Assembly: GCA_934122085.1 (NCBI GenBank)
Contig: CAKOVS010000003.1
Location: 81,734-145,733 of the forward strand
Length of the DNA stretch: 64,000 bases
DNA from: an uncultured Clostridia bacterium
GTDB lineage: Bacteria; Bacillota; Clostridia; TANB77; CAG-508
Direction: 5' to 3'
A program made the translations under genes and the position numbers. The notes beneath the pieces were generated by a model. That model searched no databases, was not told the origin of the DNA, and saw only the letters and a list, made by a program, of their open reading frames with translations. This document shows positions 9,087-54,600 of the stretch, one piece after another. Every line of letters starts with the position of its first letter. Position 1 is the stretch's first letter.

Positions 9087-9434
9087 AAATAAGTTCTCCT
9101 TTCAATTTGTTATGAAGAACTTTGAAATTATTGAAATAATTCAAGCAAAATTGCTTTGTTAAAATTTGTTGAAATTTTATAATTTTCTTTGTTGAAATGT
9201 TTGGTTGAAGAAAATAACCGAATTTTATAAAATTTTTCTGAACTCAAAAAAATTATGCTATTCTCAAATTTCTTTGAAAAATAGCATAATTCATAACTTT
9301 TGAATTTTTATAAATTCTCTTAAATTCCCTTGAAAAAGGGGCAAAATATGGTCGAGGCGACGAGAGTTTACCAGCCCAAACTAGCTTATTTTATTGCATT
9401 TTAGAATTTTCTGAATGTAGTTTGAATGCAGTAA

Positions 9435-10421
9435 CTATTCTAAATTTAAAATATCTCCAAGTAATAAATATGTATAAATTACGTAACTTTTTGCTTCATT
9501 TAAATTTATTTTATCGTGTGTTCCCTTACAAGCTGCATTATTTACGGAATCTATTCTATTACCTATATATGATAAATTTGACCCAACAATAGCATTATAT
9601 GTAGAACTCTTGCTTTTACTTTCTATATATTGAATTAATCTATTAACATATTGTTCTTCACCTAATTTTATTTCTTTTTTTCCAATAAAAATTGATTCTG
9701 GTTTGGGTGGATATAAATTGTCTGCAACTTCCTTTAATTTTCTTCTACAAGTATGTACAGCATTAGCCCAATCTTCTGGATTATTAGAATCCATATTAAG
9801 AAATATTGACGAAAACTTTCTAATAGTTTCTGGGCATAAATTTAGCAATTTGACATCTACTATTTTTCTTTTTTCGGTAAATATATCTTCAACTGTATTA
9901 CTATATGTTAACTGATTATATATTTTTAAAGTATAATCATAAATTTTTCCTTTTACGATACCTATTCTTTTTTCATACTTTTTTATTATTGCTACGATAC
10001 CATTTCTTTCAACTACATTTTTTGCACAAGAAATCATATATGGTGTAAAATCTGCCCCATAAGATTGAGGATCTTTTGCTGATTTCATTCTTTCAGTTTG
10101 TATATTTATAGTTTCTAGCATTTCAGCAATTGTTTCTGTATATGCTAACTCTTGTTTTTCTTTTTTGTCATTAGTTTCAATATAGATTCTTCCAGCAATT
10201 TTGCATATTTCCCATGCTCTATTGGTAAGATATCCTTCCTTATCTATCGGATATCCAGAAGATTCATAGCTAAAAAAATCAATTCCTTGTTCATCTCCCA
10301 TTAATCTACAAAGTCGTAATCCTTTTAATATTATATTATCCATTGGTATCTCTGATAATTCTATATTTTTTAAAATTTCTTCTGCTAAAGTTTCACATTC
10401 CTCTATATTTTTTATTTTCAT
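9435..10421 (-). CDS. Hypothetical protein (328 aa), last gene of the cargo operon
   Basis: Long ORF starting 24 nt after the Fic stop on the same strand. No family recognised. Confidence 0.55.
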   Translation of the reverse strand: MKIKNIEECETLAEEILKNIELSEIPMDNIILKGLRLCRLMGDEQGIDFFSYESSGYPIDKEGYLTNRAWEICKIAGRIYIETNDKKEKQELAYTETIAEMLETINIQTERMKSAKDPQSYGADFTPYMISCAKNVVERNGIVAIIKKYEKRIGIVKGKIYDYTLKIYNQLTYSNTVEDIFTEKRKIVDVKLLNLCPETIRKFSSIFLNMDSNNPEDWANAVHTCRRKLKEVADNLYPPKPESIFIGKKEIKLGEEQYVNRLIQYIESKSKSSTYNAIVGSNLSYIGNRIDSVNNAACKGTHDKINLNEAKSYVIYTYLLLGDILNLE

Positions 10422-10445
10422 TTATAATTACTCCTTGCTACAACA

Positions 10446-11129
10446 TTAATTTTTTTCATACCCAAATTTTTTCATTCTTTCTTTTTCTCTAGTAGATAAA
10501 TCTTTTAGCCATTCAGCTAAGCCATTACTATCATTATTTCTCAAAAATTCAAAATACTTTACCCTATCCTCTTTTGCTATAACAACAGGTGGCAAATTAT
10601 TTTTTAAAAATTCATAATTTATAAGTAATCTACCAGTTCTACCATTTCCATCTTCAAAAGGATGTATTCTTTCAAATTCGATATGATATCTAGCAATTTT
10701 AGTAAATATATCTTGCTCGTCGTGATTATAATTGTATATATAATACATCATTAAATTTGGCACTTTTTCAGGTTCAGGTGGAATATGTTCACTACCTTGA
10801 ATGAATACCTGTACAGCTCTATAACCTTCAGTATCTTTAATATCTCTGTTTATAATTTCATTTAATTTCTTTATAAGTCTTTCATCAAATTCTTCATTAT
10901 TTTGTAAATTTTTAAAAACTAATTCTAATGCTTTTTTATGATTGATAGCCTCATATATTTCTCTTGGCTCTTTTCCTTCTATTTTAAAGCTATTGTCATT
11001 ATAAAGAATAGCATAAGTTTCAGCATAAGTAAGTGTACTTCCTTCAATAGCATTTGAATGATAAGTACTTCTTGTAATTAAATCTTCTAAATAATCTTTA
11101 TTATTTAAAATAAATTCTAAAATAGTCAT
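10446..11129 (-). CDS. fic: Fic/Doc-family protein (AMPylation/phosphotransfer toxin-like)
   Basis: Canonical Fic motif HPFEDGNGRTGR. The N-terminal SNAIEG fits the [ST]xxxE[GN] inhibitory-helix motif. Confidence 0.8.
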   Translation of the reverse strand: MTILEFILNNKDYLEDLITRSTYHSNAIEGSTLTYAETYAILYNDNSFKIEGKEPREIYEAINHKKALELVFKNLQNNEEFDERLIKKLNEIINRDIKDTEGYRAVQVFIQGSEHIPPEPEKVPNLMMYYIYNYNHDEQDIFTKIARYHIEFERIHPFEDGNGRTGRLLINYEFLKNNLPPVVIAKEDRVKYFEFLRNNDSNGLAEWLKDLSTREKERMKKFGYEKN

Positions 11130-11143
11130 AGTTTTCCTCTTTT

Positions 11144-11893
11144 CTATAATCTTTTCATTATATCTATATACTCACCAGCAGTTAAAACTGTTTTAGGCAA
11201 ATGTAATTGAGTATAATAAGTATCTTTATTTTTTTGATATATTGCATCAATAATTTTACAATTTTCATCTTTATCAATTGTCATTACTAAACCAAGCACA
11301 TTATATTTTTGTGATAATTTTGTAGTATATAAAGCAATTCTATCAGTAGCATCAAGTGGCATTTCTTCGTCATCAAAAGAATCAATTTCAACAATTATAA
11401 TACTATTTTTTAAATCTTTAATTTTCAACATAATTTGTGGCTTAGGATCATTGCTCTTTACAAAATCATTAAATATATTAGCTATTTTTAGCATAGAAAT
11501 ATTTGTATTTGTTATAGTTTCTCCAAAAGTAGTTTTTCCTACACCACAACATAATTCGTTTATCGCAGTGTTTAGTGTAGTGTCATTTTTGTAGATTTCT
11601 TTAACTTTATTCATTCTCTTTTTTGTGAAGTTGTATTTATCTTTAATACCCGATATATCAAGTGTAGATATATCTGTTTCATCTACAAAAACATCTGGTG
11701 TTCTACCTAATAAATAATCAATTGACACATTAAAAATTGTTGACAATTTTTTTATTGCTTCAATATTGGGTTCTCTCATATCTAATTCATATTTTGATAT
11801 TGCTGCAGGCTCTACTCCTAATTTAGTAGCAATATCTTTTTGTGTAAAGCCATTTTTCTCTCTTAAATACTTTATTCTTTCCCCATTTGTCAT
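11144..11893 (-). CDS. XRE-family HTH regulator fused to a small P-loop NTPase-like domain
   Basis: N-terminal QKDIATKLGVEPAAISKYE HTH. Walker A-like CGVGKTT and Walker B-like IIIVEIDSFDDE in the C-terminal half. It is divergent from the xis-like gene, which is an ImmR-like position. Confidence 0.6.
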   Translation of the reverse strand: MTNGERIKYLREKNGFTQKDIATKLGVEPAAISKYELDMREPNIEAIKKLSTIFNVSIDYLLGRTPDVFVDETDISTLDISGIKDKYNFTKKRMNKVKEIYKNDTTLNTAINELCCGVGKTTFGETITNTNISMLKIANIFNDFVKSNDPKPQIMLKIKDLKNSIIIVEIDSFDDEEMPLDATDRIALYTTKLSQKYNVLGLVMTIDKDENCKIIDAIYQKNKDTYYTQLHLPKTVLTAGEYIDIMKRL

Positions 11894-11931
11894 AGTTTTT
11901 TCTCCTTCTTAATTTATGTATAAATTTTATC

Positions 11932-12160
11932 ATATCCATTTTGGAAAGTCAATGATTACTAAAAATTAAATATTTTTTACATAAAAGTTATAGAAAGTTC
12001 AAAAAATTTTGAAAAATATATTGACATTATATCCATTATGGATTAATATATAAATATCCAAAACGGATATAAATAGACTTGAAAGGAGGAATGCAATAAA
12101 AGTGAATATATAAATAACAATTTATTTTTTTACTCATTAAGTATCCAAAAAGGATAGATA
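11932..12160. promoter_or_regulatory. Divergent promoter region carrying four copies of the palindromic operator TATCCA-N3-5-GGATA
   Basis: atatccattttggaaag (11932-11948), atccattatggat (12031-12043, inside the spacer of TTGACA-N17-TAATAT at 12021-12048), tatccaaaacggata (12055-12069), tatccaaaaaggata (12142-12156). Confidence 0.55.
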
Positions 12161-12165
12161 TAATT

Positions 12166-12429
12166 TTGAAGGAGGACAAAGTTATGAATGAAAGTTTTAG
12201 TGAAGAACTTAAGAAAGAATTAGTAAAACAAGCTGTAAAAAGCTTGGATGACCCATTTAAAATGTTGACTGTAAAAGATGTAGCAAAAGATTTATATATG
12301 GGGGAAAACAAAACAAACGAAATATTTAATCGTGCAGACTTCCCATCTGTTAATATAGGCAAAACTAGAAAAATACAAAAGATAGCCTATATTTTATGGA
12401 AGATGGAAAAAAGGATTGATGTTATATGA
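12166..12429 (+). CDS. xis: Excisionase/MerR-like small HTH DNA-binding protein (Xis-like)
   Basis: KMLTVKDVAKDLYMGENKTNEIFNRADFPSVNIGKTRKI resembles the excisionase-family HTH. The start is likely the ATG at 12184, after the GGAGG. Confidence 0.5.
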   Translation: MKEDKVMNESFSEELKKELVKQAVKSLDDPFKMLTVKDVAKDLYMGENKTNEIFNRADFPSVNIGKTRKIQKIAYILWKMEKRIDVI

Positions 12430-12588
12430 GAAATATAAAAAACATTTATACAAAAGCACACTTTAGCGAGCAGGCTTTTGCACAAATGCTACATAAAGAC
12501 ATTCGTAATCTTTATAAGAATATTATATCATTTTTCCTTACTTCTAACAATAGAAAATTAAGTAGAAATATTAGAAAGTGAGTAGATT

Positions 12589-13386
12589 ATGGAAAAAACA
12601 AAGAGATATTATTGGATAAAGTTAAAAACTGATTTTTTTAATTTAGCTGAGATAGATTTTTTATTATCACAAAAAGATGGTTGTCAATATATAGTTTTAT
12701 ACCAAATGCTATGTTTACAAACTGCTAACAATAATGGTGAACTAGCATCGAGAGTTGGAGAAATGATTATTCCTTATGATCCAGATAAAATAGCAAGAGA
12801 TACTAAATATTTTAGTAAAGATACTGTTATTGTAGCTATGGAATTATTTAAAAAACTAAATTTAATATATACAGATGATGGAATTTGCTTAAAAATAGCA
12901 GGATTTGAAAATATGGTTGGTAGTGAAACTGGTTGGGCAAAACAAAAAAGAGAACAGAGAGAAAAGCAAAAATTATTAAGTGGACAATGTCCACCAAATA
13001 GTCCACAAGAGATAGATAAAGAGTTAGATATAGAGATAGATGAAGATATAGAAACTGATGGATTGAATGATAGATTAAAGTTAATTAATTTAAAATTAAA
13101 TAAAGCAAAACTAGTTCAAGAGGAAACAACAAAATACAATGCGATTTTCAATAAAAAGAAAATATATATTCAAAACGCAGAATATCTACCAGAAAATCTA
13201 TTAACACAAATAAAATTATATCAATCAGCAATCAAAAGATTATATGATAATAAACAAGCTGAATTATTAGAAAAAGTTACTTTACCGATACTAGAGAAAG
13301 TATTTGGTAACATTTTAAAAAGTAAAAAAATTGAAAATATAATAGAATATTACATTTCAAGTTTAATAAATGAACTTGCAAAATAG
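12589..13386 (+). CDS. Phage replisome organizer N-terminal domain protein (replication initiation)
   Basis: N-terminus YYWIKLKTDFF....LYQMLCLQ....GEMIIPYD....ELFKKLNLIY matches the Phage_rep_org_N pattern. Confidence 0.6.
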   Translation: MEKTKRYYWIKLKTDFFNLAEIDFLLSQKDGCQYIVLYQMLCLQTANNNGELASRVGEMIIPYDPDKIARDTKYFSKDTVIVAMELFKKLNLIYTDDGICLKIAGFENMVGSETGWAKQKREQREKQKLLSGQCPPNSPQEIDKELDIEIDEDIETDGLNDRLKLINLKLNKAKLVQEETTKYNAIFNKKKIYIQNAEYLPENLLTQIKLYQSAIKRLYDNKQAELLEKVTLPILEKVFGNILKSKKIENIIEYYISSLINELAK

Positions 13387-13398
13387 GAGGTCAAGATT

Positions 13399-14577
13399 AT
13401 GAAGAAAAAAAGAAGAAGAGGAAATGGCGAAGGTACAATATTTGAAGATAAGAAAAATAAAAGATGGATAGGTCAATACATATCAGGAATATCTTCAGAA
13501 GGAAAAGCTATTAGAAAATCAGTATATGGAAAAACTCAAAAAGAGGTTTTAAATAAATTAAATGAGATTAAATATAAAATGAATAATGATATGTATGTAG
13601 AGAAAAATGGAATTGAATTAGTAAAAATAATGGAAGATATAAGAGAAGAAAAACTTGCGTCAAATACAATTTCTGGTGGTCAATATGCTAGATTAAAATG
13701 GACTATCAATAAAATTAAAAATAGCAAAATTGGAAATATGAAAATACAAGATATAACAAAAGATGATATTCAAGAGTTTTTAAATTCTGTAAAAGATTTA
13801 AGTGATTCATATATTAAGAAACTTTATGAACAATTTGTACAAGCATATCGTAGGGCAGAAATTAAAAAATATATTTCATATAATCCTATGTATGAAGTAA
13901 TAAAACCTAAAAGCAATAAGCAAACTAAAGTCGTTGAAGCATTAGATATTGATGTGCAAAAATCATTTACAGAATATTTAAATAAAATTTCAATAGAAGA
14001 TGAACCATATAAAAATATATTTTTAATACAAATGTATATGGGATTAAGAATAGGAGAAGTACTAGCATTAAGCAAAGAGAGTATTGATTTAGAAAATAAA
14101 GTTTTATATGTTAAGAGAACACTTACAAATGATAAAGAATTTGCGATTATTTTAGGAAATAAGACCAAAACATATTCAGGTAATAGAATTTTACCTATAC
14201 CAGAATTTTTAGTGCCTATTTTTGAAGAACAACTAAAATATACAAATGAAAATTTATACAATTTAATATTTACAAATAATGATAGTTATATAAGAACATC
14301 TGCAATTAATAAAGAGCTAAAAAGAATTTTCAAAGAAGAATTAAATGTAAATTCTAAAAATATTAGCACACATTGTTTAAGACACACTTATGGAACAAGA
14401 TGTATTGAAGCAGGAATGACAGCAGTAGTTTTACAAAGATTAATGGGACACAAAGATGTTACAGTAACTTTAAATACATATACATCTGTGTTCAATAAAT
14501 TTAAAGAAGATGAAATTGAAAAAGTAAATAACTATTTAAATAATAACCAATTAAATTTTGTAAATAGCAGTAATTAG
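13399..14577 (+). CDS. int: Tyrosine-type site-specific recombinase/integrase
   Basis: C-terminus HCLRHTYGTRCIEAGMTAVVLQRLMGHKDVTVTLNTYTSV carries the R...H..R...Y catalytic signature. The N-terminal region is SAM-like. Confidence 0.85.
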   Translation: MKKKRRRGNGEGTIFEDKKNKRWIGQYISGISSEGKAIRKSVYGKTQKEVLNKLNEIKYKMNNDMYVEKNGIELVKIMEDIREEKLASNTISGGQYARLKWTINKIKNSKIGNMKIQDITKDDIQEFLNSVKDLSDSYIKKLYEQFVQAYRRAEIKKYISYNPMYEVIKPKSNKQTKVVEALDIDVQKSFTEYLNKISIEDEPYKNIFLIQMYMGLRIGEVLALSKESIDLENKVLYVKRTLTNDKEFAIILGNKTKTYSGNRILPIPEFLVPIFEEQLKYTNENLYNLIFTNNDSYIRTSAINKELKRIFKEELNVNSKNISTHCLRHTYGTRCIEAGMTAVVLQRLMGHKDVTVTLNTYTSVFNKFKEDEIEKVNNYLNNNQLNFVNSSN

Positions 14578-14595
14578 AATATCAAATATATAGTA

Positions 14596-14644
14596 TTGCA
14601 AGCTTCCTATTTGTAAGTACAAGTACTACAAATAGAGCTTGCAA
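14596..14644 (+). promoter_or_regulatory. Candidate oriT: imperfect 18-20 bp inverted repeat immediately upstream of mobC
   Basis: ttgcaagcttcctatttgta (14596-14615) pairs with tacaaatagagcttgcaa (14627-14644) around a central agtacaagtact. A ccccaacccc tract follows. Confidence 0.4.
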
Positions 14645-14702
14645 AATTGGGAGAACCCCAACCCCTTTAATCTGTTTTAGGGAAAATAAAGGAGGAAGTT
14701 GA

Positions 14703-15011
14703 ATGCAAAAAAATCAGAAGATAAATATACGATTAACTGAAAGTGAAAAGATGAAAATTGAAGAAAAATCAAAAATGTATAATATGACTATTTCTAAATT
14801 TATAATTAGTTCTTGTTTAAAAGATAAAATTATTATTGTAAATGGATTAGATAAAGTAGATAGTGAACTTAGAAGAATAGGAAATAATATTAATCAATTA
14901 ACAAGACTTGCAAATGAAAAAATAATTACAGTAGTTGACTTGAAAGAACTGCGAATGGAAGTGAATAACATATGGCAATTATTGAAGCAATTAGTTCAAA
15001 AGCAAATTTAA
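14703..15011 (+). CDS. mobC: MobC-like relaxosome accessory protein (ribbon-helix-helix)
   Basis: INIRLTESEKMKIEEKSKMYNMTISKFI. Small protein that overlaps the relaxase start. Confidence 0.6.
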   Translation: MQKNQKINIRLTESEKMKIEEKSKMYNMTISKFIISSCLKDKIIIVNGLDKVDSELRRIGNNINQLTRLANEKIITVVDLKELRMEVNNIWQLLKQLVQKQI

Positions 15012-16207
15012 AAACAATTATAAATTATGTTACACAAGACAAGAAAACAAATGCTAATTTGATAACAGGGAAAGACTGCTTAGCTGAAAGTAGTTTAGAA
15101 GAAATGTTATATACAAAAGAATTATATAACAAGAATAATGGCAGACAGTATATTCATATTATTCAATCATTTGACCCAAAAGATAATTTATCTGCAGATC
15201 AAGTTCATAATACAGGTATTAGATTAGCAAAAAAATTCAATGGATACCAGGTATTAGTCGCAACACATATTGATAAAAAACATTTGCATAACCATTTAGT
15301 TGTAAATTCAGTTTCATTTGAAAATGGATATAAAATACAAATGAGTAAAAAGAATTTACAAGATTTAAAAGATTATTCAGACAAGTTGTGTTTGGAAATA
15401 GGAGCTTCAGTTATACCTAAAAAAGAAAACACACAATACATAAAAAGAAATGAATACAGAGTTGCTGAACAAGGTAAGAGTTGGAAATTTAAATTAATGA
15501 ATGCAATTGATTTATCATTAGCAGAAAGTAATACAAAAGAAGAGTTTATAAAAAATATGAATAAATTAGGATATCAAGTTAATTGGACAGATACAAGAAA
15601 ATACATTACATATACAACACCTGAAGGATATAAATGTAGAGATAATAAATTATATGATGAAAAATATTCAAAAGGAGCAATGGAAAATGAATTTAGAAGA
15701 ATTGAAAAAGAACAATCAAATAATACAAGAAAATCAAGTAGTTCCATCAATAGTAAAGATGGATTATTATCTAATAGAGCCAGAGATAATCAAGGATTTA
15801 TATCAAATGGAACAAGCAATAGTAGAAGATATAACAATTATGAAAAAGAAAGTACAAGATACACAGGAAAAGTTATTAAAGGACAATATTCGAATGAACG
15901 AGGAAATGAAAAAATTGGTAGAGGAAAAGTTGAAAGATCAATTTTACAACTTGAAACAAGAATTGAAAGAAACGAAAGAGGAACAGAAAAGCAAGATTTC
16001 CAAAATAAAATGGAAAACAGGTTTAATAACATTCTTGGTGGGATTATTGCTATCAGCAATATGGTTTCTAACTCACAAATAAATCATAGACCTAAAAGAA
16101 AAATTAGAAGATATAAGACTTTATCAAAACAGGCTATGAAAGAATATGCAATGAAGAAAGCTAATTCTAGTGGTTTTGATTGGTTTGAAGATGAGGAAGA
16201 AATGTAA
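14972..16207 (+). CDS. mobA: MOBP-family relaxase (MobA/VirD2-like)
   Basis: Histidine-triad motif HIDKKHLHNHLVVNSV (HxDxxHxHxHxxxN). N-terminus MAIIEAISSKANLKTIINYV is typical of relaxases. Confidence 0.75.
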   Translation: MAIIEAISSKANLKTIINYVTQDKKTNANLITGKDCLAESSLEEMLYTKELYNKNNGRQYIHIIQSFDPKDNLSADQVHNTGIRLAKKFNGYQVLVATHIDKKHLHNHLVVNSVSFENGYKIQMSKKNLQDLKDYSDKLCLEIGASVIPKKENTQYIKRNEYRVAEQGKSWKFKLMNAIDLSLAESNTKEEFIKNMNKLGYQVNWTDTRKYITYTTPEGYKCRDNKLYDEKYSKGAMENEFRRIEKEQSNNTRKSSSSINSKDGLLSNRARDNQGFISNGTSNSRRYNNYEKESTRYTGKVIKGQYSNERGNEKIGRGKVERSILQLETRIERNERGTEKQDFQNKMENRFNNILGGIIAISNMVSNSQINHRPKRKIRRYKTLSKQAMKEYAMKKANSSGFDWFEDEEEM

Positions 16208-16341
16208 ATAGTTAACGAGTTTAGATAATATATTCATACATCGATTATATAATAGTTTAAATTTATAAAATTGTTGTTGACAAAATAATTTATTATGATA
16301 AAATTAAATTAATTATTTTTATTCGAAAGAGAGGGAAAGAT

Positions 16342-16710
16342 ATGGTAGAAAAAAATGAAACAGCTAATTCATATAATAAATATAGAACAATGCTAGAAAA
16401 TATAAAATCTAAATGTTTACCAAAAAATTTAATTAAGACAACTGAAGAAGGAGTAGAATATTATTGTTTTGATGGACTTCATGTTTGCCTTGAAGGTGAT
16501 GAAATTCACGTATTTGATAAAGAACCTCAATTTAATTACGATTATCTTGGTGATACAAAAAAATTAGTAGATTCTAATGTTCATTTTGGATTGAATATTA
16601 ATGATGAAATAAGTTTTGAAATTCTAGAAGGTTTTTATAATGTTGGTTCTGATCAGCTTGAAAATGGAGAATTTATTATGAACATTGACTTTGATCAAGA
16701 ACGGACTTAA
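16342..16710 (+). CDS. Hypothetical protein (122 aa) of the IME
   Basis: ORF with an upstream TTGACA...TAAAAT promoter and a GAGAGGGAAAG RBS. Confidence 0.45.
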   Translation: MVEKNETANSYNKYRTMLENIKSKCLPKNLIKTTEEGVEYYCFDGLHVCLEGDEIHVFDKEPQFNYDYLGDTKKLVDSNVHFGLNINDEISFEILEGFYNVGSDQLENGEFIMNIDFDQERT

Positions 16711-17044
16711 TTACGCTAATATATCTAAAAAATTAGTAAATAATAAATATGAGCTTGATATGAATGCCTTAGAAAATTCACAAGAAGACATTATACCTTT
16801 ATTACTTGCAGATATATCAAATCTTACTTCAAATAAGCAAGAACTCTTGCAATATGTAAATAAATTTTATCAAAAAATACAAGAAGTTTCTCAAGCAAAA
16901 GACTTAAAATCTGTAAGTACACAAGCTCTTGGTAAAGAAACATTAAGTGAGCAAAATGATACACAAGCTAAAGATGCTGTTCAACAAGATATAGAACAAC
17001 AATTAAATCAACAAAAAGATAAAGATAATCTTTCAAAAGAATAG
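16685..17044 (+). CDS. Hypothetical Q/K-rich protein; start uncertain
   Basis: ORF overlapping the previous one. An internal Met at about 16760 is a possible start. Confidence 0.35.
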   Translation: MTLIKNGLNYANISKKLVNNKYELDMNALENSQEDIIPLLLADISNLTSNKQELLQYVNKFYQKIQEVSQAKDLKSVSTQALGKETLSEQNDTQAKDAVQQDIEQQLNQQKDKDNLSKE

Positions 17045-17053
17045 GAGTATATT

Positions 17054-17497
17054 ATGATTAGTATGGAATATGCAAATGCATATACAGAGGTATTAGAAAT
17101 ATTAAAATTTATACCTAAAACAGATTATAATAAAATACCACAAGATATGATTAAAGTTTTTTCCGATAATCAAAATAAAAATTATATATTTAATTATAAT
17201 CCTTTACAATCTCTTGATGACCAAAATGTATCAAAAAAAGCAAAACTAATTATATCGATTTTATTTAGAGATTATTGGGCACAAGATAATCAAAGAGCAA
17301 AAATATTAAATAAAGAAAAAATAGATAGAATGAGATTTGAGGAAGAAAAACAAGAAAAATATAATGTAAATAATTTGTTTAAGAACAAACAAGAAAATTT
17401 GCAAAACTCAGAAAGTAATACTTCATTAATTGAAGTAAAAGAAAAGAATTTTTTACAAAAAATAATTGAAAAAATTATAAATTTATTTAGAAAATAG
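17054..17497 (+). CDS. Hypothetical protein (147 aa) of the IME
   Basis: ORF with a GGAG RBS (aataggagtatattATG). Confidence 0.45.
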   Translation: MISMEYANAYTEVLEILKFIPKTDYNKIPQDMIKVFSDNQNKNYIFNYNPLQSLDDQNVSKKAKLIISILFRDYWAQDNQRAKILNKEKIDRMRFEEEKQEKYNVNNLFKNKQENLQNSESNTSLIEVKEKNFLQKIIEKIINLFRK

Positions 17498-17764
17498 ATA
17501 TATATATCGATAACAAGATGAAATTTTGTATAATTTGCATCTTGTTATCTTTTATTATACTAAAATTTAAAAAATATAATTAAAGATACTTCCTTTATGC
17601 TAAAATAATTTGAATGCAATTATTACATTCAAATTATTTTAGCTGAATGTAGCATTGAATGCAGTAACACAAATATAGAGAAATTTAGAAAAAGTTAGAG
17701 AAAAGAAAAAAGGCTTCAAATAGCCTAAAAACAAATTAAGAGACTTGTAAAAAGTCTCTTTTTC

Positions 17765-17840
17765 TGGTCGAGGCGACAGGGATCGAACCTGCGACCTCAT
17801 GGTCCCAAACCACGCGCGCTACCAACTGCGCTACGCCTCG
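17765..17840 (-). tRNA. tRNA-Pro (anticodon TGG)
   Basis: Reverse complement CGAGGCGTAGCGCAGTTGGTAGCGCGCGTGGTTTGGGACCATGAGGTCGCAGGTTCGATCCCTGTCGCCTCGACCA. 7-bp acceptor stem, anticodon loop TTTGGGA, T-loop TTCGATC, encoded CCA. Confidence 0.9.
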
Positions 17841-36882: not shown

Positions 36883-38928
36883 TTATTCTTCATCAATTGG
36901 TCCAAATAATTCATCAAATTTAGCTTCTAACTCTTTTTGTAAATCATATGAATCCTCTTCATCTGTTATTATTGGTGCTTTTTTACTCTTTTCTGCTAGT
37001 TCTAAATTATCCAAGCTAATCATATCATTATTTGTTGTATTTGAATTCTCTGATGTTTGACTTAATTTTGTATTATCTACTGCTTCTTTCTTTGCTGTTT
37101 CATCTTTTTGACTACTAGAATCATCATCAAACAAATCATCTAATGATTCTACCTTTAAATTTTGCGCTTCTTTTTCAGCTTTATCTTCAGTCCATGGATT
37201 ATATGGATTAAATTTTCTCCAATTTCCACGTTGAATTTCGCCAATATCATTATGACTTATTTCTGAATTTTTTAAACTATTAAACATGTTTTTATGTTTA
37301 AAATAATAAAATTTATTTGCTTTAACTGGTTTTATACCTTTTTCAAAAACAATACATAAATCATTATCTAATCTTCTTAATTCATCAGGTGTCATTAATG
37401 CTCTTGCCATAACTTGATCTGAATCACTTGTTCCTGTTCTATGATGTTGCTTATCTCTACTTACAGAAATACTTTCTCTTTCAATTGTCTTTTCCCCTAA
37501 TGCTTTAGAGAAATATTCTACTGTTTTATATGAGTTACTTCCTAAAAATACATGTGTATCACAGTTACCAATAATTGTTTCATATGATTTATCATATATA
37601 GCCTCTAATTGGTCCAAATTCTGTAATATTACACTAAATGATATTTTTCTACTTCTTGAAGTTGATATTTTTTTATCAAAATCTGGTATCTTTCCTATAT
37701 TGGCAAACTCATCTAGTATAAAATATGTTGGCACTTTTAGTCTTCCCCCATTATCATCAGCAAAATTGTACAATTGTTGAATCATTTGTGAGAAAAATAT
37801 TGTTAGTAAGAAATCATATGCAGCATGAGTATCTGATGATATTACATATACTGCCGTTTTTTTACTTCCTATATCTTCAAATTTTATTGTATCTGTTGAA
37901 GTTAATTCTGCAATTTCCTTTGAGTCAAATTTTCCTAGTTTTGATTGTAATGTACTTAATATAGAACTATATGTCTTTTCAGGTGCTATTTCTATTGATT
38001 TATAATTCATTCTTGCTGGATGGTCATATGGTAATTTACTTATCAATTCTGTAAGTAAATTACTACCTCCATTTGAGTTTGCTGCTCTTACAAGTTCTGC
38101 ACAACTTGCTAAGTTTTGTTCTTCTTCTGGTCTTGCTGCCATTAAATAATATATTAATGCTTTTAATAACATTTCTGCAGAGTCATCCCAAAATGGATCT
38201 GACCCTCCTCCGTCTGTTTTTTGCCCTTTTACTATTGTATTTGCTATTACGTCTACATCTATCTCTGAGGATATATGCATTAATGGATTATATCCATCAC
38301 TATATTGTGGTTTTACTAAATTTAATACTTTTATTTCATAACCATGTTGTTTTAAATAACCGGCTGTCCTATCATAAAGTTCTCCTTTGGGGTCTGTAAA
38401 CACATATGACCCTAACATTTGAAACGCATTTGGTATTGAATAAGATGCTGATTTACCAGAACCAGAACCTCCGACTACCAATACATTAACATTTCCTCTT
38501 TTATCAACTGGTAAATAATTGTCTTCTGCTAATATAATTCCTTTTTTATTATTTAAAACAGTATATTGTTCACCATTTCTACTCCAATCACTTGAACCAT
38601 GTTCCATATCTGTATATTCATTTTTTGGAGCTGATTTTATTAATCCTATTATCATTAATATTGCATATAATATTGAAAACAATCCTACATTTTTTAAATA
38701 TTGTCCCCATATTTTTTGCGTTGACAAAATTCCTATTGATTTGCCTAAGTGTTGTATTGAATCAATTATTACTTCAATACCTTTTGTTATATCATGTTGT
38801 ATTTGTGCTTCATGTACCCCAATAGTTAATGGCATGACTAATACTATGGATATAAATACCCATAGTATAGCAAAAATTATATAATATTTCTTTGTTTTTC
38901 TTATTGCTCCCGAAATTTTGTAATTCAT
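36883..38928 (-). CDS. VirD4/TraG-type type IV coupling protein (T4CP) ATPase
   Basis: N-terminal TM helices; LVVGGSGSGKSASYSIPNAFQMLGSYVFTDPKGELYD (T4SS-DNA_transf Walker A region); FILDEFANIG Walker B. 681 aa. Confidence 0.75.
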   Translation of the reverse strand: MNYKISGAIRKTKKYYIIFAILWVFISIVLVMPLTIGVHEAQIQHDITKGIEVIIDSIQHLGKSIGILSTQKIWGQYLKNVGLFSILYAILMIIGLIKSAPKNEYTDMEHGSSDWSRNGEQYTVLNNKKGIILAEDNYLPVDKRGNVNVLVVGGSGSGKSASYSIPNAFQMLGSYVFTDPKGELYDRTAGYLKQHGYEIKVLNLVKPQYSDGYNPLMHISSEIDVDVIANTIVKGQKTDGGGSDPFWDDSAEMLLKALIYYLMAARPEEEQNLASCAELVRAANSNGGSNLLTELISKLPYDHPARMNYKSIEIAPEKTYSSILSTLQSKLGKFDSKEIAELTSTDTIKFEDIGSKKTAVYVISSDTHAAYDFLLTIFFSQMIQQLYNFADDNGGRLKVPTYFILDEFANIGKIPDFDKKISTSRSRKISFSVILQNLDQLEAIYDKSYETIIGNCDTHVFLGSNSYKTVEYFSKALGEKTIERESISVSRDKQHHRTGTSDSDQVMARALMTPDELRRLDNDLCIVFEKGIKPVKANKFYYFKHKNMFNSLKNSEISHNDIGEIQRGNWRKFNPYNPWTEDKAEKEAQNLKVESLDDLFDDDSSSQKDETAKKEAVDNTKLSQTSENSNTTNNDMISLDNLELAEKSKKAPIITDEEDSYDLQKELEAKFDELFGPIDEE

Positions 38929-50669: not shown

Positions 50670-50745
<76 letters not shown>

Positions 50746-51607: not shown

Positions 51608-54600
51608 TTATTTTAGAAATAAATTATATTTTATTTTTTTCTCATAAAATATTTTCCAACCAATTATTATAGCGATTATTAATATGATTCCACAAATAGT
51701 TATTATATAATTTGGCATTGCCCATCCTGTAAATGGAAGAAAAGTTGGTTTTTCTTCTTTTTTATCTCCATTGTCTTTTGGATTTTCAATATTATTATTT
51801 TTGTCATCTTCTTTCGGCTTATCACTTGGTCTATCTGTTATATCATTTTTAGAGTCATCTTTTGGTTTATCACTTGGATCCTCTAATGTATCATCTTTTG
51901 AATCATCCTTTGATTCATCATTTGGTTTATTGTTTGGTTTGTCTGGTGTATCGTCTTTAGGTTCATTTATCTCTGGATCCTTTTTATCAATTTTTTTATT
52001 AAAAACTTCAATAATTTTTTCGATATTTATAATTTTCCCATCTTTTTCCTCATAGCTTTCATTATTTATTGAAAATTTTATTTCTTCATCTTTTTTCTCA
52101 TACCCATCTAATGTCTCAATTTCTCTAATAATATAATCTCCATAAGGAAGATTAATTATAGAAATCTTTCCATTTTCATTTGTTTCTAAATTTTCTTCTC
52201 CTTTCTCATTATCTATAAAATATTCATTTTCATCATTTTTCAATAATTTTATAGCATTTCCATTTGAATCTAATAATCTAAATTTTACATTTTTTAATGG
52301 TTCTCCTGTTTCCTCATCTAATTTCAAAATAGTAGCTTTGGCTTGCTCTCTCGGTGAATTTGTAAATACAATTTCAGCATTTTTTTCTTTATCATATCTT
52401 AATGTTACAACATTTCCATTTGTATGAATTCCATCTATACATATATCTGAAAGATACATTGATTTTGTTTGCTTTTCTTTTATAATATATGTCTTTCCAT
52501 TTTGTAAATCTCCATACTCTTTTTCATCATCAAAATATTTTAATTCTAACTCTATTGATTTTCCCGCTTCGATATCTACGGATTTAACCAAATCTTTTCC
52601 ATCATAAATTTCAAATTCATATGTTCCTGAACTATTATCTGATGTCTGTTTACTCAATTTTATTTTTGAAGAAATTTTTACTCCTACTTTTGGTGGCTCT
52701 GCTGTTAATTGAGATTCACCAACATAATATCTATATCCAAATGAATTCCATGCAATTTGTGTTGGTTGAGCATTTTCTGATAGTTTTCCATCAAATTTTA
52801 CTGTTAAATTATAATTTTTTGGTAAAACTGCTCCATTTATAAATATTATTCTAAATGATCTTGTTGTTTCTTTTGGTATATCATACCATTTTTGATTTTC
52901 TACACCATCCCAATCATTATTTGTATATTGAATTTCATCAGTATATTCTATTTTATAATTATCAAAAGATGTCTCTATTAAATTACCATTTTCATCTTTC
53001 ATTATTAATTCAAAGTTTGGATTTTCTGATAATTTTATATCAAATTCTGAATTTCTACTTTCATTTAAATTGACAGTACCTGAATCACCTACAAATGGTA
53101 GCTTATCAATTATAACTAATTTTTCAAAATTTTTTTCTGATTTATTTGAAACATTTAGACTATATCTTACAAAATTCTTTTTTGAATTTATTGATATATA
53201 ATTGTAATTTCCATTTTTATAATCATCTTCTTTTCCATAATAACTATATCCGTAATTTGAATCATTACCTTTTTCTTGTATTCTTTGGTATGATGCAGAT
53301 ATATGTTTATCTGTACCGAATTGATATTCTGGATTTTTTACATTTACTTGAACTGGATTGCAATAACTATCTGTTTTTATTTCAAATTCAATTTTATCTT
53401 CAATTGGTGTATATCCACTTGGTGCCACGATTTCTTTTAAATAATACTTTCCAATTGGTAAATTTGATATATTTATCTTTCCATTTAATGTAGTAAGTCT
53501 TGTATGTGTATTTTCACTATTATCTTCAGATAAATAATATTCTCTTGCTGTATTTTCTTCATTTTCATTATAAACTAATTTTATTTCTTCATCTTGTTCA
53601 TTATATAATTTAAATACAACAGCATTGCTTTCTATTAATTCTCCATCTAAATTTGTTTTTTGTATACTTACATTTCCTCTGTCTTTTCCATTTTGAACTG
53701 TATATTGATATTCTTTATTTTCTGCAATATTCATTATTGTTTCTTCGCTACTTGCTACATATCCTTCTGGTGCTTCTATTTCTTTTAATGTATAATTTTT
53801 TCCGACTGTTATTCCTTTTAATCTAATTTTTCCATTATAAGTTTCAATAATTGTTGTAGCATTTTCATTTGTATCATCTGTTATTTTATAAACAGAATAA
53901 TCTTCTGTATTATCCTTTTTTTCAAAATAAACTTTATTTCCGTTTTCGTCATATACTTCAAATTTTGCACCATCTTCTGTTATTAAATTATTTTCATAAT
54001 CTATTTTGCTAATTATTATATTGTTATTACTGATTGAATTATTCTTGTAATTAAGTATATAATTTGGACTGGTTTTATAAATATATATTGAATTTTCTTT
54101 AGTACTTATTTCATATCCTTCTGGAGCTTCTATTTCACTTATATAATATCTTTGTTCTAAATCAAGTCCTGAAACATTTATTTTTCCTTTATAAGTAGAT
54201 AATTCCTCTACTTTTTCTTCATCTGAATCTTCTTCTGTTGCCATCCTATAATGACTTCCTTCATCATCTTGAATATTTAAATCAATAAATTTATAATTTT
54301 CCATCTTATTCCAACTTATATACTTTTGTACTTTAAACTTAGCTTTTCCTTCAGTTATTAATTCGTTTGTAACTGAATCTATTTTATTTATTTCAAGAGT
54401 CCCTTTTTCATTTATAATATTATCTCTTACTTCTACATTTATTATATTATTATTATCTACATCTTCATTTGTAATAGAAAATTCAATTAGCTCAGGATTT
54501 ATTTCATAATTATTTGGTGCTTGTACTTCTTGTACATAATATGTACCAACTGGTAATTTATAAATAGTTAAACTATCTCCTGTTATAATTTCTTCTACCG

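What the first reader, a model, noticed from the sequence alone, without database searches (positions are those of the whole stretch)
9349..17840. 8.4-kb integrative mobilizable element at tRNA-Pro with defined 13-bp att core
tggtcgaggcgac occurs at 9349-9361 and again as the 3' end of tRNA-Pro (17765-17777). The interval encodes a tyrosine integrase, an Xis-like HTH, a replisome organizer, MobC plus a MOBP relaxase, and a candidate oriT. It has no T4SS genes. That is the architecture of an IME that hijacks a conjugative element's mating pore.
Basis: partly seen in the sequence, partly recalled or inferred. Interest (0 to 1): 0.55.

Follow-up and report, generated by a model that had tools for sequence, protein, structure and literature searches.

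The report
Mobilizable island inserted at tRNA-Pro
This is a real 8.4-kb hitch-hiking mobile element inserted at the end of a proline tRNA gene in an uncultured gut Clostridium; it belongs to a family found in more than 20 related species, and it is an ordinary member of a well-known kind.

Summary
TGGTCGAGGCGAC occurs exactly twice in 64 kb (9349-9361 and 17765-17777), and the second copy is the 3' end of tRNA-Pro(tgg).

The interval encodes a tyrosine integrase, an HTH_17-like putative excisionase, a replisome organizer, a NikA/MobC accessory protein and a PF03432 relaxase. It also carries an XRE repressor, Fic and AbiTii. It has no T4SS or coupling-protein gene.

Comparative data settle the boundaries. 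Relatives in over 20 uncultured gut Clostridia species lose homology to the window exactly at the core on both sides, next to unrelated left flanks. Copies 98-99.5% identical sit in three other genomic contexts. Two contigs show tandem copies with attP-like junctions. Empty tRNA-Pro sites exist in sister species.

The ends share more than the core: TGAATGYA motifs at fixed offsets, probably integrase arm sites. A covarying bidirectional terminator hairpin lies just inside the tRNA-proximal end. A nearly invariant hairpin between int and mobC is the likely oriT.

The flank outside the left repeat is a decayed RepA_N/TnpV mobilizable element, so this is tandem accretion at a hot spot.

Excision and mobilization are inferred, not shown, and no helper was identified.

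Verdict: a canonical integrative mobilizable element, a new member of a known kind, of low-to-moderate interest.

The parts
9349..9361 (+). Distal direct repeat (att core copy, tRNA-distal junction)
   Evidence: Exact 13-mer, 2 copies in the window, 0 expected. Homology with family members in other species begins here.
9412..9430 (+). Two TGAATGYA motifs: candidate integrase arm-type sites on the left (P') arm
   Evidence: They lie at +62/+73 from the left core in 14 family members.
9435..10421 (-). AbiTii-domain protein (variable cargo, candidate abortive-infection defence)
   Evidence: PF18864, 3e-12; PADLOC AbiTii, 2e-18. Present only in the window-type copies (the window, L013 and L065) and replaced in L014, L015 and L064.
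10446..11129 (-). Fic-domain protein (semi-conserved cargo)
   Evidence: PF02661, 2e-21; PADLOC PDC-S04, 4e-66, and SoFic. Conserved in many but not all relatives.
11144..11893 (-). XRE/cI-like HTH repressor (249 aa), conserved backbone gene
   Evidence: PF01381, 4.5e-16; NCBIfam RstR-family repressor, 3e-17; PHROG transcriptional regulators. Backbone homology in relatives starts at about 11130.
12031..12156 (.). Divergent control region with TATCC-N5-GGATA palindromes (candidate operators): exact at 12055-12069 and 12142-12156, degenerate at about 12032-12046
   Evidence: 2 exact matches, both in this intergenic region, against 0.05 expected. Sequence read. TTGACA-17-TAATAT promoter-like site at 12021-12049.
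12184..12429 (+). 81-aa HTH_17-like protein, putative excisionase/RDF
   Evidence: No Pfam or NCBIfam hit. PHROG 'HTH DNA binding protein', 7e-4. 43-44% identical over 40 aa to HTH_17-type proteins beside other tRNA-Pro integrases.
12426..12581 (+). 51-aa ORF, unknown, conserved position
   Evidence: Called in all copies. No family hit.
12589..13386 (+). Replisome organizer / DnaD-like loader (maintenance of the excised form, inferred)
   Evidence: PF09681, 2.6e-11; PHROG replisome organizer, 5.8e-36.
13399..14577 (+). Tyrosine integrase (392 aa)
   Evidence: PF00589, 2.2e-23. Residues R217, H325-x-x-R328, H351 and Y361 present. Homologues 85-100% identical lie next to tRNA-Pro in more than 20 species.
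14596..14672 (+). Candidate oriT: imperfect 18-20-bp inverted repeat (14596-14644) followed by a GC-rich stretch
   Evidence: DNA hairpin of -19.6 kcal/mol, z = -6.7. Nearly invariant in 23 family members. Bin 14600-14639 is 97.3% conserved, against 80% and 63% in neighbouring non-coding bins.
14703..15011 (+). Relaxosome accessory protein (NikA-like RHH + MobC)
   Evidence: PF21983, 1.9e-19; PF05713, 1.7e-11.
14972..16207 (+). Relaxase (411 aa), MobA/VirD2-like nuclease domain
   Evidence: PF03432, 1.9e-33. NCBIfam SAG1250-family (1e-20) and TraI_MobP (1.4e-9), both below cut-off. Y19 and H99xD101..H104xH106xH108 present. 47-49% identical to relaxases of 10-16-kb C. botulinum MobC+relaxase plasmids.
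16342..17497 (+). Three small ORFs of unknown function (122, 94 and 147 aa) in the right-hand variable region
   Evidence: No significant family hits. This region is replaced in many relatives. The 147-aa protein is on record in 203 collection blocks.
17611..17663 (.). Four TGAATGYA motifs (one inverted): candidate arm-type sites on the right (P) arm
   Evidence: Fixed offsets of -109/-121/-141/-154 from the right core in the family.
17738..17760 (.). Bidirectional terminator-like hairpin just inside the element. It follows the reconstituted tRNA 3' end on the minus strand and ends the element's rightward genes on the plus strand.
   Evidence: Detected on both strands. 6 of 9 pairs covary and 96% of cells are paired across 9 family variants.
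17765..17777 (+). tRNA-proximal direct repeat (att core), identical to the 3' end of tRNA-Pro
17765..17840 (-). tRNA-Pro(tgg), the integration target (host gene, left intact)
   Evidence: ARAGORN.
8081..9086 (-). Outside the element: truncated TnpV (8081-8260) and RepA_N (8541-9086). This is the remnant of a different mobilizable element accreted at the same tRNA.
   Evidence: PF14198, 9e-14; PF06970, 1.6e-22. The full version in L064/L068 has RepA_N (297 aa), Mob_Pre (407 aa), TnpV and DUF6664. It is only 67-90% identical between loci whose IMEs are 97-99% identical.

Best explanation
The interval 9349-17764 is a canonical integrative mobilizable element (IME). One further copy of the 13-bp core follows at 17765-17777.

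Integration (boundaries shown, mechanism inferred). The tyrosine integrase recombined a circular form of the element with the 3' end of tRNA-Pro(tgg). The element's own core rebuilds the tRNA end, so the gene stays intact, and the core ends up duplicated. Strand exchange most probably lies in the first 9-10 bp (TGGTCGAGG). The TGAATGYA repeats on both arms are the likely arm-type binding sites.

Control (inferred). The XRE/cI-like repressor and the divergent operon (xis-like, 51-aa ORF, replisome organizer, int, mobC, relaxase) meet at a region with TATCC-N5-GGATA operators. They probably form a switch that keeps the element quiescent.

Transfer (inferred). On derepression the integrase and the HTH_17-like protein would excise the element. 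The replisome organizer may keep the circle replicating. NikA/MobC and the PF03432 relaxase would nick the invariant hairpin region between int and mobC (oriT). The relaxase-DNA complex would then pass through the coupling protein and mating pore of a co-resident conjugative element, because the element encodes neither.

Other features. The left and right ends carry swappable cargo, here AbiTii and Fic, which are candidate anti-phage genes. A hairpin at the tRNA-proximal end gives the tRNA a terminator and insulates it from element transcription.

Basis. Shown by sequence and comparison: the boundaries, gene content, family distribution, near-identical copies in several contexts, tandem arrays and the conserved sites. 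Inferred: excision, the roles of the sites, mobilization and the identity of the helper.
For: - Exact core repeat at the tRNA 3' end.
- Protein families of all the recombination and mobilization genes, with catalytic residues present.
- Homologous elements in 41 loci from GTDB species representatives. Where both ends are visible, the element (7.7-10.4 kb) is bounded by TGGTCGAGG[C/T]GA[C/G], with tRNA-Pro on the right and unrelated sequences on the left.
- Copies 98.3-99.5% identical to the window lie beside tRNA-Pro-Bax1-I-RadA instead of PcrA (L064, L065), or beside other elements (L013, L068).
- Tandem copies in L026 and L031 have right end-core-left end junctions, the sequence expected of attP.
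- Empty tRNA-Pro sites occur in sister species and strains.
- Arm motifs sit at fixed offsets.
- The terminator hairpin covaries.
- The oriT hairpin is stable and nearly invariant.
- No T4SS or coupling-protein gene lies inside the element.
- The architecture matches the published definition of canonical IMEs (PMC5704250).
Against: - No circular or attP junction of a single copy was seen. Pattern scans of viral and JGI metagenome contigs were empty. The JGI set holds no member of the family at all, so that null result says little.
- In the window's own lineage, every contig that carries the left flank also carries the element. There is therefore no isogenic empty site for this copy.
- No helper T4SS was found in the 64-kb window among ORFs of 150 aa or more.
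- The RDF assignment rests on weak homology.
- The relaxase scores below the NCBIfam cut-offs for named families.
Confidence: 0.86

Rival explanations
1. A real integrated element that is now an immobile relic. The repeats mark a past integration, but the copy no longer excises or transfers.
For: No attP junction was found. The element is present in every sampled contig of this lineage that has the left flank. No helper T4SS lies in the window. Decay does occur in the family: L067 and L070 lack window 13645-16098, that is int, mobC and the relaxase.
Against: All backbone ORFs are full length, with catalytic residues present. Copies 98-99.5% identical sit in different hosts and contexts, which implies recent transfer. 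The att, arm and oriT sites are intact and match the family consensus.
Confidence: 0.07
2. A phage satellite (PICI-like island) rather than a conjugatively mobilized element. The integrase, cI-like repressor, small HTH protein and replisome organizer would serve induction by a helper phage and packaging into its capsids.
For: The left half has a phage-like layout: a repressor, a divergent operon and a replisome organizer with strong PHROG hits. The integrase is phage-type.
Against: The element carries NikA/MobC, a relaxase and a highly conserved oriT-like hairpin. No terminase, capsid-remodelling or packaging gene was found, and the three unknown ORFs have no PHROG hit. There is no nucleotide match in 50,697 phage records. 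Replisome organizers are common in IMEs (PMC5704250, PMC5357655).
Confidence: 0.03
3. The unit of mobility is a larger composite, made of the RepA_N/TnpV segment plus the IME or an even larger island reaching toward maf. On this view 9349-9361 is only an internal att site.
For: RepA_N/TnpV modules lie immediately left of the distal core in at least 11 fetched loci (L013, L014, L016, L018, L028, L029, L030, L037, L064, L065, L067), some of them the same element in one species. Relatives L004/6/7 lack everything left of window 18131, tRNA-Pro included. Composite transfer of accreted elements is documented (PMC5704250).
Against: The neighbouring modules are only 67-90% identical where the IMEs are 97-99.5% identical, and they differ in content: L064 has Mob_Pre and the window does not. 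Seven species have unrelated left flanks that start exactly at the core. No further core copy lies to the left in the window. The window's RepA_N and TnpV genes are truncated (one search compared).
Confidence: 0.04

Closest known systems
NBU1 / NBU2 (Bacteroides canonical IMEs)
   Same: About 10 kb in size. They have a tyrosine integrase and insert at the 3' end of a tRNA gene with a short duplicated core. They encode a MobP-type relaxase and an internal oriT, have no T4SS or coupling protein, and are mobilized in trans by ICEs (PMC5704250, tables 1-2 and section 3.1).
   Different: The host is in a different phylum (Bacteroidota rather than Clostridia) and the target is tRNA-Leu or tRNA-Ser rather than tRNA-Pro. 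Sequence homology to IntN1 or MobN1 was not tested. This element also has a separate NikA/MobC accessory protein, a replisome organizer and a cI-like switch.
Tn6031 (Sphingobacterium)
   Same: Listed as an IME with a tyrosine integrase inserted at the 3' end of a tRNA-Pro gene (PMC5704250, table 1).
   Different: It comes from the Bacteroidota. The shared target is probably convergent.
Streptococcal IMEs with canonical relaxases (e.g. IME_Class_9: Rel_PF03432/MobP plus replisome organizer)
   Same: They come from the Firmicutes, have a PF03432 relaxase and no coupling protein, and carry replisome-organizer-type maintenance genes (PMC5357655).
   Different: In that survey every IME with a canonical MobP, MobQ or MobV relaxase used a serine integrase (PMC5357655). 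This family pairs a PF03432 relaxase with a tyrosine integrase that targets a tRNA.
Small MobC+relaxase mobilizable plasmids of Clostridium botulinum (e.g. NC_009496.1, 16,344 bp; NZ_CP013708.1)
   Same: These are the closest relaxase relatives in PLSDB, 47-49% identical over the N-terminal 242-264 aa, with the same mobC-relaxase gene pair. Most matching plasmids are predicted to be mobilizable.
   Different: They are free replicons without an integrase or att sites. The C-terminal third of the relaxase does not align.

Membership tests
Canonical IME (definition in PMC5704250) | Encodes its own site-specific recombinase | tested here: met
   PF00589, 2.2e-23. R217, H325, R328, H351 and Y361 present.
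Canonical IME (definition in PMC5704250) | [quoted passage not shown] | tested here: met
   The 13-bp repeat equals the tRNA-Pro 3' end. Family-wide homology stops at the repeats.
Canonical IME (definition in PMC5704250) | Encodes a canonical relaxase, with or without relaxosome accessory proteins | tested here: met
   PF03432, 1.9e-33, and NikA-like/MobC.
Canonical IME (definition in PMC5704250) | Carries an oriT | tested here: inconclusive
   A strong candidate lies at 14596-14672. The nick site was not identified and no known oriT consensus was matched.
Canonical IME (definition in PMC5704250) | Encodes no T4SS or coupling-protein gene | tested here: met
   All 14 ORFs of the element were scanned and none hit a T4SS or T4CP family.
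Canonical IME (definition in PMC5704250) | Excises as a circle and is mobilized by a helper conjugative element | not testable with these tools
   The evidence is indirect: near-identical copies in different hosts, tandem junctions, and no single-copy attP in the collections scanned.
MOBP relaxase superfamily | PF03432 relaxase domain with an N-terminal catalytic Tyr and a histidine triad | tested here: met
   PF03432 covers residues 19-144. Y19 and HxDxxHxHxH at residues 99-108. PF03432 corresponds to MobP by CONJscan according to PMC5357655.
MOBP relaxase superfamily | Scores as a member of a curated MobP family model (NCBIfam TraI_MobP_relax) | tested here: not met
   37.5 bits against a cut-off of 250. 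The SAG1250-family model gives 73.8 bits against 575. The relaxase is a distant member, not an equivalog.
Phage satellite / PICI | Genes that redirect helper-phage packaging (terS, capsid-size or packaging-interference genes) | tested here: not met
   No PHROG, Pfam or NCBIfam hit of that kind. No phage DNA match.
Recombination directionality factor (HTH_17 excisionase type) | Matches PF12728 | tested here: inconclusive
   There is no direct Pfam hit. The link is transitive: 43% identity over 40 aa to a PF12728-annotated neighbour of another tRNA-Pro integrase.

The most novel reading that the evidence does not exclude
The family may be more than a passive hitch-hiker. It would be the tRNA-proximal tenant of a shared landing pad at tRNA-Pro, where at least four unrelated element families stack in tandem in small-genome gut Clostridia. 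Its transfer might also depend on the host's own orphan VirD4-type coupling protein (window 36883-38928, fixed in a housekeeping context) together with a pore supplied in trans. That would be a conjugation apparatus split between chromosome, helper and IME.
Probability: 0.05. Interest if true: 0.6.

Novelty: new member of a known kind. Interest (0 to 1): 0.27.

Why it matters
The finding defines a widespread IME lineage with base-pair-exact ends in uncultured, low-GC gut Clostridia of humans (including the Hadza), goats, rabbits and chickens. Annotation of mobile elements in these bacteria is poor.

The family carries swappable anti-phage cargo (AbiTii, Fic and others). It moves between species, since 98-99.5% identical copies sit in different contexts. 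It pairs a tyrosine integrase with a PF03432 relaxase, a combination not seen in the streptococcal IME survey.

The core, arm motifs and invariant oriT given here could serve as search signatures for annotating the family in metagenomes.

It does not change how such elements are thought to work.

Tried and rejected
- The PcrA lookup with the 789-aa ORF found nothing, because the gene is called from a later ATG. The 781-aa form worked.
- I looked for an isogenic empty site in the window's lineage. All contigs with the Maf or RepA_N flank carry the element.
- Contigs with the identical PcrA but no element (L004/6/7) are not empty sites. They lack tRNA-Pro altogether and diverge 10 bp after the PcrA stop.
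- attP-junction patterns gave no match in viral contigs or JGI metagenome contigs. A control pattern (right end plus core) also found nothing in JGI. That collection simply lacks the family, so the null result is uninformative.
- A possible third, degenerate core at 8494-8506 (3 mismatches) is at chance level and has no comparative support.
- I asked whether the RepA_N/TnpV segment belongs to the element. It does not: it is much more diverged than the IME between loci and is absent from seven species.
- The relaxase has no meaningful relative among PDB sequences.
- There is no phage DNA match.
- Generic repeat finding in this 25% GC DNA returns mostly AT-rich noise.
- The promoter-like count is not above the shuffled expectation, so individual promoter calls are weak.

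Full report
**1. The observation**

TGGTCGAGGCGAC occurs at 9349-9361 and 17765-17777 and nowhere else in the window, even with one mismatch. None of 100 shuffles gave a match. With three mismatches, two unrelated chance-level hits are added. ARAGORN places tRNA-Pro(tgg) at 17765-17840 on the minus strand. The right copy is therefore the tRNA's 3' end, CCA included, and it faces into the interval (sequence). The distance between the two copies is 8416 bp. That is the size of the putative excised circle.

**2. Gene content**

From left to right:
- 9435-10421 (-): AbiTii.
- 10446-11129 (-): Fic.
- 11144-11893 (-): a 249-aa XRE/cI-like repressor.
- 11894-12183: a divergent control region.
- 12184-12429 (+): an 81-aa protein.
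- 12426-12581 (+): a 51-aa ORF.
- 12589-13386 (+): a replisome organizer.
- 13399-14577 (+): a tyrosine integrase.
- 14578-14702: a 125-bp gap.
- 14703-15011 (+): NikA-like/MobC.
- 14972-16207 (+): a PF03432 relaxase.
- 16342-17497 (+): three unknown ORFs of 122, 94 and 147 aa.

The integrase keeps R217, H325-x-x-R328, H351 and Y361. The relaxase keeps Y19 and an H99xD101..H104xH106xH108 motif.

The 81-aa protein has no Pfam hit. It is 43-44% identical over 40 residues to small proteins that sit beside other tRNA-Pro integrases, and one of those carries a PF12728 (HTH_17) hit. "Xis-like" is therefore a reasonable but indirect call.

Nothing in the interval resembles a T4SS component or a coupling protein. 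The element's GC content (25.0%) matches the rest of the window (25.7%).

**3. Boundaries from comparative genomics**

A scan of one genome per GTDB species returned 41 loci, all MAGs of uncultured gut Clostridia. Twenty-odd have integrases 85-100% identical to the window's.

BLAST against the window shows three features:
- a conserved backbone from the repressor to the relaxase, about 11130-16210;
- two variable cargo regions, 9440-11130 and 16210-17600;
- conserved ends at 9349-9437 and 17600-17777.

Projecting the ends onto each locus gives the following:
- The right end abuts tRNA-Pro(tgg) in most loci.
- A second copy of TGGTCGAGG[C/T]GA[C/G] lies 7.7-10.4 kb to the left.
- The sequence left of that copy is unrelated between species (L015, L019, L020, L021, L027, L034, L038).

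Homology therefore ends exactly at the core on both sides.

**4. Evidence of mobility**

- L013 is the representative genome of a different GTDB species. It carries the element at 98.8% identity, with a different neighbour on the right, and homology to the window ends inside the core at 17775.
- L064 and L065 carry copies 99.2% and 98.3% identical. There tRNA-Pro is followed by Bax1-I, RadA and DisA instead of PcrA. Homology to the window ends 60 bp beyond the tRNA.
- L068 and L071 match L064 in both flanks and in the IME, but they have a further 9-kb element (resolvase plus a 421-aa integrase) between the IME and the tRNA.
- L026 and L031 hold tandem copies joined as right end-core-left end. 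That is the sequence an attP would have.
- L067 and L070 hold a deletion derivative that lacks window 13645-16098, that is int, mobC and the relaxase.

**5. Empty sites**

Every contig of the window's own lineage that carries the left flank also carries the element.

Contigs with an identical PcrA protein but no element (L004/6/7) are about 94-96% identical relatives. They lack tRNA-Pro at this position and diverge 10 bp after the PcrA stop. They are a different arrangement, not an empty site.

True empty sites were found elsewhere:
- L055 and L056 are 91% identical to both flanks of the occupied L019 site. Their tRNA-Pro directly follows the left-flank gene and its native terminator hairpin.
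- In the same species, L054/58/60/62 have a different element at the same core: a 454-aa integrase on the minus strand and an HTH_17 gene.
- In the Bax1-I species group, L073/76/78/79 are empty. L072/74/75/77/80/81 are occupied by other elements, bounded distally by CTCACCTCGACCA.
- In L072 a RepA_N remnant 71% identical to window 8738-9361 abuts the intact tRNA-Pro. That is the window's arrangement without the IME.

The tRNA-Pro 3' end is thus a hot spot used by at least four element families that stack in tandem. This is the accretion pattern described for IMEs (PMC5704250).

**6. The left neighbour**

Window 8081-9086 encodes a truncated TnpV and a 181-aa RepA_N protein. The intact counterpart in L064/L068 has RepA_N (297 aa), a Mob_Pre relaxase (407 aa), TnpV and DUF6664.

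Such modules flank the IME in at least eleven of the fetched loci (some are the same element in one species). They are only 67-90% identical where the IMEs are 97-99.5% identical, and they differ in gene content. I read this segment as a decayed resident element onto which the IME accreted, not as part of the IME.

**7. Sites inside the element**

*(a) Arm motifs.* TGAATGYA occurs ten times in the 64-kb window, about the chance number. Six of the ten lie in 9412-9430 and 17611-17663. In 14 family members the motifs sit at the same offsets: +62 and +73 from the left core, and -109, -121, -141 and -154 from the right core. These are the expected positions of arm-type integrase sites on P' and P (inference).

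*(b) Terminator hairpin.* A hairpin at 17738-17760 scores as a terminator on both strands. Across nine sequence variants, 6 of 9 pairs change on both sides while 96% of cells stay paired. Slid controls reach at most 70%. It would terminate the rebuilt tRNA and also stop element transcription from running antisense into the tRNA (inference).

*(c) Candidate oriT.* The int-mobC gap holds an imperfect inverted repeat (14596-14644) that folds at -19.6 kcal/mol, z = -6.7. It is nearly invariant in 23 relatives. The 14600-14639 bin is 97.3% conserved, more than the adjacent coding sequence, against 80% and 63% for the neighbouring non-coding bins. This is the candidate oriT. The nick site is unknown.

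*(d) Operators.* TATCC-N5-GGATA occurs twice in the window, both times in the divergent control region, against 0.05 expected. A degenerate third copy overlaps a TTGACA-17-TAATAT promoter-like site. These are candidate operators for the repressor (inference).

**8. Where the crossover lies (inference)**

The two core copies of a given element often differ at position 10 (C or T) or position 13 (C or G). They never differ in positions 1-9. In the distal copy, positions 10-13 follow the element and not the host tRNA: L015, L019 and L064 differ at position 13, and L018 differs at position 10. This places strand exchange within TGGTCGAGG.

**9. Comparison with known systems**

The architecture meets the published definition of a canonical IME: an oriT, a canonical relaxase with accessory protein, its own integrase, and no T4SS or coupling protein (PMC5704250).

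PF03432 relaxases are classed as MobP (PMC5357655). This one is a distant member, below the NCBIfam cut-offs. Its closest relatives in PLSDB are the relaxases of small MobC+relaxase plasmids of C. botulinum, at 47-49% identity.

NBU1 and NBU2 are the closest functional analogues: a tyrosine integrase, insertion at a tRNA 3' end, MobP, and a helper ICE. Tn6031 shares the tRNA-Pro target (PMC5704250). Replisome organizers are common in IMEs of Firmicutes (PMC5704250, PMC5357655). In the streptococcal survey, IMEs with canonical relaxases always used serine integrases (PMC5357655). The pairing seen here is therefore less usual for Firmicutes, but it is not new in kind.

**10. Rivals**

- A phage satellite is unlikely. 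There are no packaging genes, no PHROG hits for the unknown ORFs and no phage DNA match.
- An immobile relic is possible for this particular copy. Intact genes and sites, and near-identical copies in other contexts, argue against it.
- A larger composite unit is not supported (section 6).
- A chance repeat is excluded.

**11. Verdict**

The element is a new member of a known kind, namely a canonical IME at a tRNA gene. The helper element, excision and the oriT nick site remain untested.

Noticed in passing
window 36883-38928 (-): A 681-aa VirD4/TraG-type coupling protein (PF02534, 9e-89; TraG-D_C; TrwB_AAD_bind) stands alone between SbcC/SbcD-like genes and a DnaJ-like gene. No other T4SS gene appears among the window's ORFs of 150 aa or more. 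All 22 contigs read show the same housekeeping context. It is an orphan coupling protein 19 kb from an IME that has none.
   Followed up: partly
window 18131 and leftwards; L004, L006, L007: Relatives about 94-96% identical, with an identical PcrA protein, diverge 10 bp after the PcrA stop. They have no tRNA-Pro there. CoatF, M23 peptidase, MecA, RadC and MreBCD follow instead. Everything from tRNA-Pro leftwards, to beyond the window's start, is therefore lineage-specific or rearranged. The far boundary was not found.
   Followed up: partly
window 1-6051 and L009 16069-20579 (left of the window): The window's left end continues an island that starts beyond it. Outside the window it has a split tyrosine integrase (240 + 110 aa), AAA_21, DUF6602 and SMODS/AGS_C (CBASS-like) genes. 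Inside the window it has a 530-aa HNH protein, a Cu/Zn SOD fragment, and metallophosphatase, NUDIX and Maf genes.
   Followed up: no
window 17054-17497; L013 3921-4370; L027 2300-2752; L072 12342-12788: The 147-aa protein of unknown function is on record in 203 collection blocks, against 38 for the integrase. Homologues of 148-150 aa with the same C-terminal KEKNF[LI]Q[KR]I..KI motif occur in other elements stacked at tRNA-Pro. No family hit was found.
   Followed up: no
L067 5507-10724; L070: A deletion derivative of the IME lacks window 13645-16098, that is most of int, mobC and the relaxase. It keeps both ends and cores and sits next to a 444-aa integrase element. It looks like a non-autonomous, CIME-like form.
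   Followed up: partly
L068 10712-19700; L071: A 9-kb element (resolvase, N6/N4 methyltransferase, DUF3102, 421-aa integrase) is inserted between the IME and tRNA-Pro in contigs that otherwise match L064. Its internal junction keeps about 23 bp of the tRNA 3' end (window-equivalent 17765-17787), so its duplicated core is longer.
   Followed up: partly
L073 10854-10899 compared with window 9300-9348 (reverse complement): The 'empty' tRNA-Pro flank in L073 (tatttatagctgttttcaagaaaatttgaaagaactt) resembles the terminal sequence of the RepA_N-type elements (window: tattttgcccctttttcaagggaatttaagagaatt). It may be a footprint of that element family or a shared functional site.
   Followed up: no
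window about 7360-8080 and 14972-16207; L002, L010, L012, L003, L008: Independent metagenome assemblies break repeatedly near the 154-aa ORF/TnpV remnant and inside the relaxase gene. This suggests repeated or strain-variable sequence there.
   Followed up: no
L039-L051: More distant integrase relatives (40-50% identity) sit directly beside other tRNA genes (Glu-ctc, Leu-taa, Gln/His, Cys/Gly). Their int gene abuts the tRNA, whereas in this family mob and cargo genes lie between int and the tRNA.
   Followed up: no
window 51608-58999 (-) and 50670-50745 (-): A 2463-aa ORF and a tRNA-Arg(cct) lie here. Neither was examined.
   Followed up: no
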